Below, in pieces: positions 3,371-8,343 of a DNA stretch of 20,000 bases (position 1 is its first letter; each line of letters starts with the position of its first letter). The notes below the pieces were generated by a model. It was not told the DNA's origin and did not search any database. It was given only the letters and a program-made list of their open reading frames with translations. A program made the position numbers and the translations under genes. The stretch comes from an uncultured virus (IMG/VR IMGVR_UViG_3300031555_000852) (Duplodnaviria > Heunggongvirae > Uroviricota > Caudoviricetes): IMG/VR virus record IMGVR_UViG_3300031555_000852, positions 45,254-65,253 of that record; one strand, 5' to 3'.

Positions 3371-4321
3371 TCAAAAAATTTCTTTCAGGTCTAACAATTC
3401 CTCGGGTGTGCAGTCATTCGCATCTTTTCTGCCGTCGGGCAAAACATACTCGGTAATCAGTTTGTTTCGCACATTCTTTTTTATACGAGCCCGTGCTTTC
3501 ATACCTGCCTCGTCACTATCGGTGCAGAGAATAAACTTTCTACAAGGCATTGCCCGCAACTGCTGAAACTGCAACTCATTCCCGAGGCCGTTCAAGGCTA
3601 CTGCATACTTACCGACTGTCCAAAGATAAATGGCGTCAATCATACTCTCGCAAATGATAACCTCTGTCGGGTACCGTTCGAGTTGACTCAACTCATACAG
3701 TCCGTACACAGGCTTCTCTGCTCCAGCAGGATAGTTAAAGAACTTAGTCACAACACTTCTGCGGGCTACAAATAAGCATCGGCCAGATACATCTCGGACA
3801 GGAAAGGTTATAGACTTGGTTTTGGCGTCATAACCAACATCAAATATATCCACGACTTCGGGCGTCATCTTGCGCTTCCACATATACGGATGATACACTC
3901 TGTAGGTGTCGAGTTCGTCATCACTTATATATAATGTAGACTTTTCAACAGTGGTTCTGGATAAATTGAGTTCTATCGTCTTGCGCTCCTCTACACTCAC
4001 TGTGAGGAAGTTCTTTAATAGCCACTCCCATCCAAATGCACCTACAACATCATCATCTCTGCCGAAACAGTGCGAAATCATCTCCTGCAATGTGTGAGTC
4101 TCTCCGCAAGTGAAGCAGTGAAATATGCCATCGCTTTTCTTAATACCCGCGGAGGGTCTACGCTCTTGTCCACCCTTATGATACGGGCAACACACCTGAA
4201 TATTGTCAGGTGTGTCACGCATTGAGTGGAAAAGTTGAATGCCATTTGCAGACAATTGGGAGCGCAGTTCTTCGAGAATGGACATCAAGTCAGTCTCAAA
4301 CGGAACATTGTTCAGTATCAT
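3371..4321 (-). CDS. dnaG: DNA primase (CHC2 zinc finger + TOPRIM)
   Basis: CCPYH...FHCFTC zinc finger; TOPRIM motifs ICESMIDA, CTDSDEAG and KDAND; ATGA overlap with the upstream HTH gene. Confidence 0.93.
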   Translation of the reverse strand: MILNNVPFETDLMSILEELRSQLSANGIQLFHSMRDTPDNIQVCCPYHKGGQERRPSAGIKKSDGIFHCFTCGETHTLQEMISHCFGRDDDVVGAFGWEWLLKNFLTVSVEERKTIELNLSRTTVEKSTLYISDDELDTYRVYHPYMWKRKMTPEVVDIFDVGYDAKTKSITFPVRDVSGRCLFVARRSVVTKFFNYPAGAEKPVYGLYELSQLERYPTEVIICESMIDAIYLWTVGKYAVALNGLGNELQFQQLRAMPCRKFILCTDSDEAGMKARARIKKNVRNKLITEYVLPDGRKDANDCTPEELLDLKEIF

Positions 4322-4548
4322 TTTTGCAACGCCCCCAAACTATAACCGAGAGCGCTGAGGATGCAGGTTGCGTTAAACATAGTAGGCTCACATCTGCCAG
4401 ATAAATAATTGTGTATGGTGTTAGGATGCACACCGCTCAACTTCGCCAACTTGGTCACAGTCATCTCTCGGCATTCAAGTTTATGGCTTAACCAATCCGA
4501 AAACACATCAATCTCCTCAATTTTAGAATACATCTGTTTGGTCTCCAT
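4318..4548 (-). CDS. XRE/Cro-family helix-turn-helix protein
   Basis: MTVTKLAKLSGVHPNTIHNYLSGRCEP is a typical HTH_3 pattern. Alternative start at 4533. Confidence 0.85.
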   Translation of the reverse strand: METKQMYSKIEEIDVFSDWLSHKLECREMTVTKLAKLSGVHPNTIHNYLSGRCEPTMFNATCILSALGYSLGALQK

Positions 4549-5821
4549 AGGATTTCTTTCCCTCCGCTACTTTTCTTTCCGTAGTTCTATTATCCTCAAC
4601 ATCGTCGTAAGTAGGAATAAACTCAAATTCTCCCGTGTTGATATCCCAATGGTAAGTAAGTTTACCCCCTACGGCACCAAATCTCTGCTTCTTTACGGTC
4701 ATATTAAGTACGCCGTGTTCCTTTTGATGGATAGAAATGACCTTACTTGCGTTGTGTGCGATGCCGTCGGAATCTCGAATACTCTCAAGGTCAGGAGTTT
4801 CGTCCCCACCCTTTTCAACAACACCGCTACGGTTTGCTTGGACAACGACAAGAATCGGCACACCAACTTCCATAGAGAGTTCCATTAAGTCCTCACTGAT
4901 ATTGGTAAGGCTTGTAGTCTTGTTGTCGCCTCTCTTGTATCTCTCGTCAGTCATATAGGTAATGCCGTCTACTGCAACGAGGTCTAATTTGTACTGTTTA
5001 ATCCAATTCTTAATCTTCGTCACGGTAATCTTCTTGTCGAAGTCAAGAGGGGTAGCAACTACAAACTTATTCTCCGACTGACGGAGACCTTGAATGTATG
5101 CCTCATAGTCATCTTGGTCAATATCGTCTTTGCCCCACATCAATCCACTGTTGGAATAATGACTGTGCAGGGTATCAAATCTATAACCAATGCTACTTGC
5201 ACTCATCTCGGGCGAAATGTAGCCTACATTGAAGCCTGTCTGCCATACATGGGTGCACATCTTTTCGAGAATCCAAGACTTTCCTTGATTGGTGCGGGCA
5301 AAGATTACGAACAACTCGTCTCTTCTCTGTATGCCGTGAATGATGTCATCGAGTTCTTGGAAACCACAAGTGAAGAACCACTCCTTTTGATGGTCTTTCC
5401 TCTCGACAAACTGATTGAATCGGTCATCCGCATTTGCAACAATATCAATGCCACCCAACGCATAGTTAGGTTGCAGGGTTTTCATCGCATTCAACAAATA
5501 TTCGGCGGCCGCGTTACTATCAGTCTGTAACAGTTTCGCGGCCTCTTGAATAACAGGCACAGATTTGTAGTACAGAAATTCCTCTCGGACAGTATCTACT
5601 AAATATCTGTCGGACTCTGTGACCTCAACGAGTTCAATCTGCGGAAACTCTGCGAGGAATGTAGCCTTGTCTGGCACATTTCCATACTGCTTGATGTGGT
5701 CTTGAATGAAGTTATATTCGTTCTCATAGCCAACGAAGTAATCTTCGGATAGCAGATTGTCCTCAATGATTGAGTTATTGGCAGTCTGCAAGACTTTTGA
5801 TAATATCTGCAATGTAACCAT
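4523..5821 (-). CDS. dnaB: Replicative DNA helicase, DnaB-like (SF4)
   Basis: Walker A ARTNQGKS, ISPEM, Walker B VAVDGI, VVQANR, SDGIAHNA and KQR motifs; TAATG coupling to the loader gene. Confidence 0.92.
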   Translation of the reverse strand: MVTLQILSKVLQTANNSIIEDNLLSEDYFVGYENEYNFIQDHIKQYGNVPDKATFLAEFPQIELVEVTESDRYLVDTVREEFLYYKSVPVIQEAAKLLQTDSNAAAEYLLNAMKTLQPNYALGGIDIVANADDRFNQFVERKDHQKEWFFTCGFQELDDIIHGIQRRDELFVIFARTNQGKSWILEKMCTHVWQTGFNVGYISPEMSASSIGYRFDTLHSHYSNSGLMWGKDDIDQDDYEAYIQGLRQSENKFVVATPLDFDKKITVTKIKNWIKQYKLDLVAVDGITYMTDERYKRGDNKTTSLTNISEDLMELSMEVGVPILVVVQANRSGVVEKGGDETPDLESIRDSDGIAHNASKVISIHQKEHGVLNMTVKKQRFGAVGGKLTYHWDINTGEFEFIPTYDDVEDNRTTERKVAEGKKSYGDQTDVF

Positions 5822-6489
5822 TATCTCATATCTCCTCCCTTGAAGATTATTACTTCGGTATCTTTCGAGAACACACGACTTGCCATCTTCGCCCCAATGG
5901 CTTTCGACAGACCATCAAGCGTTGTAATGTTGCCCGTATAGATGTTTGACAGGCCCGCGTTGGAACGAGCATCAAGGGGCATAATCAACTGCGTGGCATC
6001 ATACGCACTCATACCAAGACACCCAATGTCGTCCCACACAACGAGGTCGACTGTATAGAGCAACTGTTTGAGGCGCTCGAACTCTGGGTCTTTCGTATTG
6101 AAGTCTTTACACTTACCAAGAAATGTGGGTATATGAATGAACACGGCTCTCGGCTTGAAGCCGTTGCCACCCCAAATCTGGTCGAAGTATTTGTGCATCA
6201 GTTTGATGGCCCAAGTGGTCTTTCCGTTGCCCGTATGACTGCTCGTCAAATACAAACTCTTGCCATTCTCTACAAAATTCACGATGTCATCCTTAATGTC
6301 CGCCAATCTGTAGTACGCATCAAGGTCGCAATCAGGTGCTTCAAGTCTCTGTGGACATTGCTTCTTTGTAGGCAGATTACTGTTGTCCATCAAATATCGC
6401 ATCTCTTTATATCGGATGCACATATTTTGACAATTCTCACCGAACTTTTGGCACACAGACTCATACCAACAGTTAGAATGTTTTTCCAC
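5821..6489 (-). CDS. dnaC: DnaC/IstB-like AAA+ helicase loader
   Basis: Walker A HTGNGKT, Walker B LVVWDDIG, IYTGN, ASRV; Cys-rich N-terminus; GTG start with GGAGG RBS; sits between initiator and helicase. Confidence 0.88.
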   Translation of the reverse strand: MEKHSNCWYESVCQKFGENCQNMCIRYKEMRYLMDNSNLPTKKQCPQRLEAPDCDLDAYYRLADIKDDIVNFVENGKSLYLTSSHTGNGKTTWAIKLMHKYFDQIWGGNGFKPRAVFIHIPTFLGKCKDFNTKDPEFERLKQLLYTVDLVVWDDIGCLGMSAYDATQLIMPLDARSNAGLSNIYTGNITTLDGLSKAIGAKMASRVFSKDTEVIIFKGGDMR

Positions 6490-7297
6490 TAAAATTTCCC
6501 TCCTTCGTCTGTACTTTTATATCAGCGGTGTTTGGCATACCAATGTCACAGAACACCGTTTCTTTCTTATCTGCTTTCGCCGCAATTGGGTAGAACGACA
6601 GCCAACCCTTGTCAATACTCTGCTGGACCACATCTACATATTCTCGTTGACACTCGGCTACTGCTTGGTCAAGTTTTGTAAGCATGCCTTTCCAAGACGC
6701 TATACCAAAGGGCTTATCCTTTACTTCAAGTCGAATTTTGAGGAACTGTATAAGTTTCTCCCGTAAATCAGGTAGGTCTGTGTACTTATCAATCTCGGCT
6801 ACACACTTATCGAATAATGTAGGGCGTCTTGTGATGGATCTTGTACGCTTTGATTTTTTAGCACTTCCTAAGAACTCACTTCTCAATTCTTCCTTGCTAT
6901 AACCTTTGCTACTGCAATCCTCATCGGGCGTACTAATTTCATTTATGAAATTAGTATCTTCCTCTATATTATCTTCTATATTATTGATGCAACTTTGTTG
7001 TATGGGGTATGCAACTTTGTTGCATGGTGTGCAACTGTATTCGCAAAACTTAATATTGTTTTTGAAGGATTCGTGTTTCTCAATCAAGCCCGCATCGAGA
7101 AGATTTTTAAGGTTCTTCTGTATGCCAGACTTTGTAGCATTACACCAGTCTGCAAGATATTGTAGGCTGCCGGTAAATCTCGATTCTCCGTCTTGCGAAA
7201 ATCCATATATGAGTGCATATACTATCAAATCATTTCCACTTAATTTTAGGTCTGTGACCATCCATGATTGAACTACGAAATATGTATTTTCCTTCAC
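6473..7297 (-). CDS. Phage replication initiator / replisome organizer (N-terminal winged HTH)
   Basis: LSGNDLIVYALIYGFSQDGESRFTGSLQYLADW...IQKNLKNLLDAGLI wHTH; directly upstream of the DnaC-like gene; contains internal iteron-like repeats; GTG start with GAGG RBS. Confidence 0.85.
   Translation of the reverse strand: MKENTYFVVQSWMVTDLKLSGNDLIVYALIYGFSQDGESRFTGSLQYLADWCNATKSGIQKNLKNLLDAGLIEKHESFKNNIKFCEYSCTPCNKVAYPIQQSCINNIEDNIEEDTNFINEISTPDEDCSSKGYSKEELRSEFLGSAKKSKRTRSITRRPTLFDKCVAEIDKYTDLPDLREKLIQFLKIRLEVKDKPFGIASWKGMLTKLDQAVAECQREYVDVVQQSIDKGWLSFYPIAAKADKKETVFCDIGMPNTADIKVQTKEGNFSGKTF
6931..7036. repeat. Putative origin of replication inside the initiator gene (iterons + AT-rich repeats + inverted repeat)
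   Basis: 22-bp tandem repeats ATGCAACTTTGTTGYATGGKGT at 6987-7008 and 7009-7030, plus partial GCAACT. TCTATATTAT twice (6963, 6975). Perfect 12-bp inverted repeat TACTAATTTCAT-tt-ATGAAATTAGTA at 6931-6956. Confidence 0.75.
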
Positions 7298-7327
7298 GCC
7301 AGTACCTCTTATTTTCTCATTAAAGTG

Positions 7328-7427
7328 ATGAACTCACACTACACAAGGTGCGGGCCAAGTATAGTGTGAGTTCATAGTTGGTTGATATTCAGTTATCCTT
7401 GATTGATATCCCGCAATATCAACCAAC
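7328..7427 (-). promoter_or_regulatory. Structured 5' leader / regulatory element of the initiator operon
   Basis: 14-bp perfect inverted repeat 7328-7341/7362-7375 (17 bp with one G-U on the minus strand). 13-bp perfect inverted repeat 7377-7389/7415-7427. Alternative 12-bp stem 7399-7410/7415-7426. Confidence 0.65.
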
Positions 7428-7494
7428 ATAAGTTTGAGCGGCCAAGCGACAATGGGAAGTCAACTTGTGATGGGCGCTCTCAACTTACAAATAT

Positions 7495-7523
7495 ATTATA
7501 ACATATATTGTGAGTAACTTCAA
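7495..7523 (-). promoter_or_regulatory. Sigma-A/70-type promoter P2
   Basis: TTGAAG (7523-7518), 17-bp spacer, TG-n-TATAAT (7500-7495); AT-rich UP region. Confidence 0.75.
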
Positions 7524-7546: not shown

Positions 7547-7780
7547 TTATTTTTTATTAGGTTGGGTCATACGAATGATGTCCTCTGCCTGTGCATCTAC
7601 GACACCATTTACGGCATCAAAGAGTGCGACACGCTCTGCCTCAATATCAATTCCCTCCACATCAGGAATTGCTCTTTTCTCTGTGTATTCGACAGTATAA
7701 AAGTTATCACGAACCTTAATGGCTACTCTACTTGTAGCACTGATTTCGGTTACGACTGCTTTTGAAGTATATTCTTTCAT
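7547..7780 (-). CDS. Hypothetical protein (77 aa)
   Basis: Strong AAGGAGGA RBS; fits the gene packing of the operon. Confidence 0.8.
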   Translation of the reverse strand: MKEYTSKAVVTEISATSRVAIKVRDNFYTVEYTEKRAIPDVEGIDIEAERVALFDAVNGVVDAQAEDIIRMTQPNKK

Positions 7781-7790
7781 ATTATCCTCC

Positions 7791-7907
7791 TTATTTCTTC
7801 TTGCTCATTGTAACCGCTACGATTACAAGCCCGATTGCACCTACAATGAGGCCGGTCAGTGCGCCCAAAAAGAATACGGCGCCTGCGGAAAGTGTTACTG
7901 TGTACAT
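7791..7907 (-). CDS. Small single-pass membrane protein (38 aa), not in the ORF track
   Basis: MYTVTLSAGAVFFLGALTGLIVGAIGLVIVAVTMSKKK*; GGGAG RBS; fills the gap between the two neighbouring genes. Confidence 0.75.
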   Translation of the reverse strand: MYTVTLSAGAVFFLGALTGLIVGAIGLVIVAVTMSKKK

Positions 7908-7908
7908 A

Positions 7909-8343
7909 TCATTCTCCCTTCTTTACTTTTTCTCTGGAAAGTCTTAACTGAACAGTCTCCGTTGTAGTTCTACAACTTTCCAACTGTCTTGCGAGGTCTG
8001 TGGAAGGCGTATTGTTGTAGAGATATGCCTCAAGGGCATCCATATCTACATACTCCTTTGTCTTGATGGCGTCAGTGATTCCGTTTTGACGAAGCACCTC
8101 AAGAAGTTTCGCCTCGTTCATAGACTCTTTGACTGCCACGATTCTCTTCACGGTGTAACCACCTGCGGAGTATTCGTTCTCGCCGAGTTCTACGAGGGCT
8201 GCCTTAATCTGCTCGTTTTCTTCCTTGCAGATTTTGGTGTAACTGTCCAACTCATTCTTATTCAACGCATATCGAGGAATAAGTTCTTCGAGGGACTCAT
8301 TTGTGGGGTTTGACGGTTCGTTTGTCAGGTTAATTCTTGACAT
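7909..8343 (-). CDS. Hypothetical protein (144 aa), possibly Gam/Gp157-like
   Basis: GGAGG RBS; N-terminal coiled coil, then IKTKEYVDMDAL, reminiscent of Mu Gam/Sipho_Gp157 proteins. Function is tentative. Confidence 0.6.
   Translation of the reverse strand: MSRINLTNEPSNPTNESLEELIPRYALNKNELDSYTKICKEENEQIKAALVELGENEYSAGGYTVKRIVAVKESMNEAKLLEVLRQNGITDAIKTKEYVDMDALEAYLYNNTPSTDLARQLESCRTTTETVQLRLSREKVKKGE

What the first reader, a model, noticed from the sequence alone, without database searches (positions are those of the whole stretch)
7298..7494. Switch-like structured leader with complementary loops upstream of the replication initiator
Seen: about 190 nt separate promoter P2 from the initiator GTG, in an otherwise tightly packed genome. 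On the minus-strand transcript, segment 7427-7415 can pair with a distal partner (7389-7377, 13 bp perfect) or a proximal partner (7410-7399, 12 bp with 2 G-U, loop GCGG); the two are mutually exclusive. A 17-bp hairpin follows (7375-7328, 1 G-U). UGCGGG (7415-7410) at the first stem's loop is complementary to CCCGCA (7354-7349) in the second loop. All three stem imperfections read as G-U only on the minus strand, which favours selection on RNA. Known: IncI/IncB plasmids control rep translation through a loop-loop pseudoknot and an antisense RNA. Inference: this may be an undescribed cis-regulatory RNA switch controlling the phage initiator-loader-helicase-primase operon.
Basis: partly seen in the sequence, partly recalled or inferred. 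Interest (0 to 1): 0.75.

Follow-up and report, generated by a model that had tools for sequence, protein, structure and literature searches.

The report
Refolding kissing-loop leader before phage initiator
In front of its DNA-replication genes this uncultured gut phage has a folded RNA leader in which one hairpin tip can pair with the tip of a stop-type hairpin, but only before the first hairpin refolds and hides it; dozens of related phages keep this design with different letters, so it is a real, uncatalogued element that probably decides how often the replication genes are transcribed.

Summary
The element is a real, conserved sense-strand RNA. Of 80 related loci, 63 gave distinct two-hairpin leaders. 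Loop 1 and loop 3 match over at least 6 contiguous bases in 61 of 63, against 3.2% of 3,906 mismatched combinations, with 45 different loop words. New here: loop 1 is open in the early fold and hidden in the late fold in 61 of 61, much more than with shuffled linkers. The second hairpin is terminator-like (U-tract in 58 of 63, weak in this window) and does not cover the ribosome site. No antisense promoter or leader peptide is conserved, so the IncI/IncB model fails. Best reading (inferred, 0.6): a transcription attenuator. A loop-loop kiss made during transcription blocks the terminator, as in guanidine-IV riboswitches; refolding of hairpin 1 closes that window. The input is unknown; my preferred guess is the released leader acting in trans, P4-style. 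No Rfam match, and not found in the papers searched. This scan has noted similar leaders on other DNA. No RNA data.

The parts
7547..7780 (-). 77-aa conserved ORF of unknown function (beta-hairpin plus long helix). It was the handle used to collect homologues and is not required for the leader design.
   Evidence: no clear fold match; the design also occurs at loci without it
7495..7523 (-). sigma-A-type promoter TTGAAG-17-TATAAT with extended -10 TG; +1 inferred near 7488
   Evidence: strong sense promoter score in 60 of 63 homologues
7428..7488 (-). 5' hairpin P0; variable, absent in the shortest homologues
   Evidence: L197-L201 have X only 5-6 nt after the -10 box
7415..7427 (-). X, the 5' strand shared by the early and late folds
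   Evidence: slowest-changing segment (3% differences in 19 close pairs)
7410..7415 (-). loop word L1 (UGCGGG), exposed in the early fold and buried in the late fold
7399..7410 (-). proximal partner of X (early hairpin P1a, G-U rich)
   Evidence: 97% of cells paired, 6 of 10 pairs with two-sided changes, 0 of 500 shuffles reach the score
7390..7397 (-). linker that pairs back onto L1 and the start of the proximal partner in the late fold (masking helix P1c)
7377..7389 (-). distal partner of X (late rod P1b)
   Evidence: helix 1: 96% paired, 7 of 12 pairs with two-sided changes
7328..7375 (-). terminator-like hairpin P3 (17 bp plus a 2-bp upper stem), followed here by a weak U-tract (4 U in 8)
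7349..7354 (-). loop word L3 (CCCGCA), complement of L1
7305..7308 (-). Shine-Dalgarno GAGG, outside all hairpins
6473..7297 (-). HTH_36 replication initiator (274 aa, GTG start), followed by a DnaC-like loader (5821-6489), DnaB (4523-5821), an HTH protein (4318-4548) and primase (3371-4321)

Best explanation
A transcription attenuator with a built-in timer. SHOWN (sequence comparison and folding): a strong promoter makes a 90-200-nt leader. X first pairs with its near partner, leaving L1 as a hairpin loop. About 25 nt later the far partner and linker can take X over and bury L1. A long, bulged terminator-like hairpin follows, whose loop L3 is the complement of L1, then the SD and the initiator gene. 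INFERRED: if the early hairpin survives until L3 emerges, L1 and L3 kiss. The kiss hinders completion of the 17-bp terminator, so polymerase reads into the initiator-loader-helicase-primase genes. If the late rod forms first, or L1 is already occupied, the terminator closes and a short leader RNA is released. The two states are close in computed energy (mean difference -2.7 kcal/mol), so a small input can tip them. GUESS at the input, given an attenuator: released leader acting in trans on nascent L1, as self-limiting feedback like P4 CI RNA (~35%); pure folding kinetics, a fixed leak (~30%); a phage or host protein (~25%); a metabolite (~10%).
For: Loop match in 61 of 63 against 3.2% non-cognate; 45 loop words. 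Both X helices covary. L1 is unpaired 0.84 early and 0.38 late, lower in 61 of 61. Opening L1 costs 6.7 kcal/mol against 2.4 with shuffled linkers, real higher in 57 of 61, and no early pair survives in the late fold. U-tract of at least 5 in 8 in 58 of 63; SD outside P3. No conventional antiterminator pairing with either P3 arm, so L1:L3 is the only conserved long-range contact. An initiator motif lies within 110 nt in 51 of 63, across six unrelated N-terminal types. The same three-part design occurs in temperate phages lacking the 77-aa gene (late masking in 7 of 11 tested). Tested precedent for loop-to-terminator-loop antitermination: the guanidine-IV riboswitch (PMC11611296, PMC7736828, passages).
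Against: No RNA or bench data. The window's own U-tract is weak (4 of 8), as in 4 other homologues. At equilibrium the late fold is complete about 25 nt before L3 appears, so the kiss needs a kinetic delay that folding programs cannot show. The polarity (kiss = ON) is borrowed from another RNA. Loop words change no faster than P3 stems (0.118 against 0.154), so there is no sign of the diversifying selection expected of an immunity determinant. Temperate carriers also have ordinary CI/Cro pairs. Element boundaries were curated by hand on sense-strand folds, which favours the strand test.
Confidence: 0.6

Rival explanations
1. Stand-alone small RNA or mRNA-stabilising structure: the kiss is a tertiary contact of a finished ~100-nt RNA with a job of its own, and the initiator is made by unregulated leak through P3.
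For: Promoter, compact structure and terminator together make a complete sRNA unit; in L197-L201 it starts at about +1. Six initiator types, and sometimes inserted genes, follow it (12 of 63 lack an initiator motif within 110 nt).
Against: The finished fold buries L1, which a structural kiss would not need. The element stays with the start of the replication operon even when tRNA genes or a second promoter are inserted upstream (L145, L146, L153). One copy per genome.
Confidence: 0.15
2. Opposite polarity: the kiss helps P3 form or hold and so promotes termination, while burying L1 allows read-through.
For: Not excluded by any computation here. With the linker unpaired, early hairpin, kiss and P3 could coexist. 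A weak U-tract, as in this window, might need help.
Against: P3 is stable alone (-13 to -29 kcal/mol). In the one tested architecture of this kind the kiss opposes the terminator.
Confidence: 0.1
3. IncI/IncB-type control: a counter-transcribed antisense RNA blocks a pseudoknot that is needed for translation of the initiator.
For: Same target class (a rep gene) and same logic of one loop with a competing partner (PMC8383071 passage). P3 and P1a have antisense-like bulged stems and 6-8-nt loops.
Against: No conserved antisense promoter, no leader peptide, SD not sequestered. A promoter for another sigma factor, or one more than 120 nt downstream, was not scanned.
Confidence: 0.08
4. DNA-level element: cruciform or single-strand hairpins at an origin, or repeated protein-binding sites.
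For: Long near-perfect inverted repeats beside an initiator. X is well conserved and its two partners form a direct repeat.
Against: The sense strand folds better than the antisense strand in 59 of 63 (P1a) and 51 of 63 (P3); many G-U pairs; a one-sided U-tract; loop-loop covariation.
Confidence: 0.04

Closest known systems
Guanidine-IV (GGAM-1/mepA) riboswitch and its Gd4v variant (PMC7736828, PMC11611296, PMC9788692; passages read)
   Same: Two hairpins joined by a loop-loop pseudoknot, the 3' one a Rho-independent terminator, with no overlapping antiterminator strand. There the kiss gives read-through within a short transcription window.
   Different: No conserved nucleotides in the kiss (45 loop words) and no Rfam match. 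It sits before phage initiators, not guanidine genes. It has an extra far partner and linker that refold hairpin 1 and hide its loop.
Satellite phage P4 immunity: CI RNA with seqA and seqC (passage in PMC4825925)
   Same: A self-complementary leader of a phage replication operon, controlled by premature termination; in P4 the regulator is cut from the same strand.
   Different: No sequence or Rfam similarity. One 6-8-nt seed instead of two targets. Trans action is only a guess here. Gram-positive-type promoters and SD; temperate carriers keep CI/Cro.
IncI-alpha ColIb-P9 repZ pseudoknot with Inc antisense RNA (review passage, PMC8383071); the IncB parallel is recalled
   Same: A rep leader in which a hairpin loop must pair downstream for expression.
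   Different: The output there is translation through RBS access, and the inhibitor is an antisense transcript; neither feature is found here.
pT181 and pIP501 antisense-driven transcription attenuators (review passage and reference titles)
   Same: A terminator in the rep leader with two exclusive folds, in Gram-positive hosts.
   Different: Those need a counter-transcript; their antiterminator overlapping the terminator stem is recalled. No such pairing or promoter is conserved here.

Membership tests
IncI/IncB rep pseudoknot system | cis-encoded antisense RNA with its own promoter over the first hairpin | tested here: not met
   best antisense score mean 6.5 against 6.5 in coding controls; 9 or more in 8 of 63 against 6 of 56; no position shared by more than 7%. 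Only sigma-A promoters within 120 nt downstream of P3 were scanned.
IncI/IncB rep pseudoknot system | rep SD or start codon sequestered in a stem that the pseudoknot opens | tested here: not met
   SD motif 7 or more nt after P3 in 61 of 61 found; no cognate pairing of upstream parts with the SD region
IncI/IncB rep pseudoknot system | translated leader peptide coupled to rep (recalled feature) | tested here: not met
   an SD-led start in 11 of 63, at no common place
IncI/IncB rep pseudoknot system | hairpin loop pairing with a downstream leader sequence, covarying between replicons | tested here: met
Guanidine-IV / Gd4v riboswitch | upstream hairpin loop pairs with the loop of a terminator hairpin | tested here: met
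Guanidine-IV / Gd4v riboswitch | [quoted passage not shown] | tested here: not met
   45 distinct loop words in 61; no Rfam match in the window or 14 homologous loci
Guanidine-IV / Gd4v riboswitch | upstream of guanidine transport or acetyltransferase genes | tested here: not met
   followed by phage initiators
Guanidine-IV / Gd4v riboswitch | ligand-dependent read-through | not testable with these tools
   needs transcription assays
P4 CI / P1 c4 same-strand immunity RNA | match to the family models | tested here: not met
   no Rfam family at E <= 5 (window) or E <= 1 (homologues) apart from a tRNA and one sub-threshold SR6 hit
P4 CI / P1 c4 same-strand immunity RNA | RNA from the leader acts in trans to force termination | not testable with these tools
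   no RNA holder listed; loop evolution gave no support
pT181/Inc18 attenuator | counter-transcript and an antiterminator overlapping the terminator stem | tested here: not met
Intrinsic terminator (P3) | stable hairpin followed by a U-tract | tested here: inconclusive
   met in 58 of 63 homologues; weak in this window (4 U of 8), and not called by the terminator scan

The most novel reading that the evidence does not exclude
A replication counter with no antisense gene and no protein. Each terminated leader folds so that L1 is hidden and L3 is displayed on an antisense-like bulged hairpin. It then kisses the briefly exposed L1 of nascent transcripts and forces them to terminate. One strand is thus attenuator, timer and diffusible inhibitor, giving a burst of initiator after infection, then shut-off and possibly exclusion of phages with the same loop word, in a wide range of gut and rumen phages.
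Probability: 0.22. Interest if true: 0.85.

Novelty: new variant of a known kind. Interest (0 to 1): 0.63.

Why it matters
How phages with lambda-O-like initiators but no obvious repressor limit initiator synthesis is little studied outside a few enterobacterial models (own knowledge). This is a widespread, strongly covarying RNA element at exactly that point, shared by integrase-free 60-70-kb phages and ~35-kb temperate phages, in front of unrelated initiators. It would be a further natural use of terminator-loop capture beyond guanidine-IV riboswitches, with an added refolding timer and apparently no ligand pocket. It is only about 100 nt and testable in vitro. Its 45 natural loop words might also serve as orthogonal attenuator parts.

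Tried and rejected
Rfam: nothing in the window; in 14 homologous loci only a tRNA and a sub-threshold SR6 hit. Cultured-phage DNA search: only weak promoter-region hits. Antisense promoter, leader peptide, hidden antiterminator or SD pairing: none conserved. A second copy or trans partner in the own genome: none with the model; only chance-level 10-13-mers in four genomes. A shared operator between the CI/Cro region and the leader promoter: none in 3 genomes. Faster evolution of the loops: not seen. Correlation of the two stem lengths: not significant (rho 0.20, p 0.13). P3 pair counts on the MAFFT alignment were poor (56% paired) because its register is off; P3 rests on per-sequence folds. 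Phage-plasmid idea: no ParA in 22 of 22 records of the 77-aa group; no 77-aa gene in plasmids or cultured phages. The Eubacterium eligens 60-kb circle is a recombinase-bearing phage with similar gene order but no such leader. The 77-aa protein as the regulator: no clear fold match (best Z 5.4), no named cluster, and the design exists without it. Sequencing runs: no RNA holder listed; two DNA contigs span the element unchanged. The supplement of PMC5737381 could not be read, and 3 files of PMC10690425 were not searched, so an unnamed candidate motif there cannot be excluded.

Full report
Setting. The window is the last 20 kb of G000, a complete 65,253-bp phage record with direct terminal repeats. 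The leader lies on the minus strand between a 77-aa ORF (7547-7780) and an HTH_36 initiator (6473-7297), which is followed by a DnaC-like loader, DnaB, an HTH protein and primase. No integrase was found among 50 other proteins or by family search. The host is unknown; the promoter and SD look Gram-positive (inference). The one real hit of 2 in genome contigs is a 19-kb contig in a Bacteroidaceae MAG, which may be mis-binned.

Observation. The region folds far better than shuffles (z -6.7 minus strand, -4.8 plus strand). Taken alone, a 6-nt loop match arises in 2.5% of shuffled loops, so homologues were needed.

Homologues. An alignment of the 77-aa protein returned 80 viral loci, the best 80 of 89. 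I dropped 13 duplicates, 2 loci cut before the leader (L139, L155), 1 with no element (L180) and 1 with a simplified form (L193). That left 63 distinct leaders, the window included as L138. Boundaries were curated by hand; loops were then defined automatically as 12 nt centred on each apical loop. L1 and L3 of the same leader share at least 6 contiguous Watson-Crick pairs in 61 of 63 (mean 6.8), against 3.2% of 3,906 non-cognate combinations. The two misses are a parsing slip (L152) and a one-base mismatch (L197). There are 45 different loop words. On an 18-sequence alignment, the early hairpin is 97% paired with 6 of 10 pairs changed on both sides, and the late helix is 96% paired with 7 of 12. 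For the covariation score 0 of 500 shuffles reached the observed value in either call, and for the early hairpin the slid controls are much lower. The P3 register in that alignment is off (56%), so P3 rests on per-sequence folds: median 17 bp, bulged in 54 of 61, loops of 6-8 nt in 50 of 61. The sense strand folds better in 59 of 63 (early hairpin) and 51 of 63 (P3), with the caveat that boundaries came from sense folds.

The switch is real and hides L1. In all 61 leaders with a clean kiss, at least 4 positions of X change partner between the early and late folds, and no early pair survives. L1 is on average 0.84 unpaired in the early transcript and 0.38 in the late one, lower in 61 of 61. This is not just added length: opening L1 costs 6.7 kcal/mol, against 2.4 when the linker is shuffled (real higher in 57 of 61, p <= 0.05 in 34; the window itself p 0.11). 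The late fold lies within 5 kcal/mol of early fold plus kiss in 51 of 61 (mean -2.7), a crude sum that ignores loop geometry.

Output. P3 is followed by at least 5 U in 8 nt in 58 of 63 (the window has 4). The SD motif starts 7 or more nt after P3 in all 61 where one was found. No upstream segment pairs with either P3 arm or the SD region better than non-cognate controls. A strong sense promoter is present in 60 of 63; antisense promoters match the coding control (8 of 63 against 6 of 56) with no shared position. No leader peptide is conserved. An initiator motif lies within 110 nt in 51 of 63, in six unrelated N-terminal classes. G000 holds one copy.

Wider range. A second sample was chosen by the initiator instead (80 of 467 loci). 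A rough parser passed 12 of 49 distinct loci without the 77-aa gene and mis-picked several others. Of 11 such loci picked by eye, 7 show the same late masking, 1 forms the rod with little masking, 1 has no rod and 2 were mis-parsed. Simpler forms, in which the 5' end pairs with the terminator loop, occur in L002-L005, L193, L238, L282, L286 and L299. The cultured Flavobacterium phage FCV-1 has a two-hairpin form with an 8-nt match and no rod, one short gene upstream of its initiator (L311:1180 and 1235). Among 50 of the 66 records I had listed, the 77-aa group has a tyrosine integrase in 2 of 22, and a serine recombinase or ParA in 0 of 22. The leader-bearing second group has a serine recombinase in 9 of 12, mostly with CI/Cro-like HTH pairs. 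Records I judged leaderless have an integrase in 12 of 16. The design therefore spans lifestyles and does not replace a repressor.

Mechanism. Shown: the anatomy, the covariation, the masking and the absence of the IncI parts. Inferred: the kiss antiterminates. In guanidine-IV riboswitches a kiss between an upstream loop and the terminator loop opposes the terminator within a narrow transcription window (PMC11611296, PMC7736828; passages). Here the far partner adds a clock, since L1 is available only until the rod forms. A kiss made first would also close the terminator's 5' arm into a ring that a helix of more than one turn must wind around (my reasoning, untested). What sets the outcome is open. 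I lean to the released leader acting in trans, because it ends with L1 hidden and L3 displayed, and P4 controls its replication genes with an RNA cut from the same leader (PMC4825925 passage). Against that, loop words change no faster than P3 stems (31 of 263 against 100 of 648 in 19 independent pairs). At equilibrium the rod is complete before L3 appears, so the ON state needs a kinetic delay.

What is known. There is no Rfam family. Nine full-text searches gave no description of it. I read passages of PMC5737381, PMC8383071, PMC11611296, PMC7736828, PMC4825925 and PMC9788692. For PMC10690425 I saw the listing and abstract start and searched 6 supplementary files without a hit, with 3 not searched; the supplement of PMC5737381 could not be read. 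An unnamed candidate there is possible. This scan has noted kissing-loop leaders before phage initiators on other DNA; those notes are leads, not support, and one of them pointed me to guanidine-IV.

Verdict. A real, uncatalogued RNA family. It works most like a guanidine-IV-type kissing-loop attenuator aimed at a P4- or plasmid-type target, and is a member of none of these families. New variant of a known kind; interest 0.63.

Noticed in passing
L145:2855-2926 (same record as L011): A tRNA gene (Rfam) and a second tRNA-like stretch lie between the promoter and the element, which stays next to the initiator.
   Followed up: partly
L181, L167, L174, L189, L154, upstream of X: A small shared hairpin with CCTCA/TGAG-like arms just after the promoter; the linkers of two other subgroups share an ACCTCATA-like word. 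Unexplained.
   Followed up: no
L147, L162, L182, upstream of X: A shared ~20-nt motif (CCCAAC...GGCT.GTGAA) in longer leaders; not matched by Rfam.
   Followed up: partly
L153:2900-3250 and L191:2900-3200: A further ~250-nt structured non-coding unit with its own promoter and terminator between the 77-aa gene and the leader promoter.
   Followed up: no
L002-L005 2800-3000; L238; L282; L299: A variant design: a very long (~27-bp) terminator hairpin whose loop carries a 9-16-nt complement of the transcript's 5' end.
   Followed up: partly
L311:1165-1275 (Flavobacterium phage FCV-1, NC_041845.1): A cultured phage with a two-hairpin kissing leader (8-nt match, no late rod) upstream of gp52 and the initiator-like gp53.
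   Followed up: partly
L309/L314 (NC_012782.1): The 60-kb '[Eubacterium] eligens plasmid' is a complete recombinase-bearing tailed-phage genome, with a reverse transcriptase beside a tail gene and a replication gene order like this window's.
   Followed up: partly
G000 C1:42469-44586 and 23761-25799: Glucosyltransferase-like genes flanking a ParB-like gene, and a methyltransferase with a QueC-like gene: probably DNA-modification clusters.
   Followed up: no
G000 C1:~15900-22600: About 7 kb with few convincing ORFs and no PHROG hit among the 6 tested there.
   Followed up: no
window 7790-7909, minus strand: A 38-codon hydrophobic ORF (possible small membrane protein) between the 144-aa and 77-aa genes, below the ORF cut-off used.
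   Followed up: no
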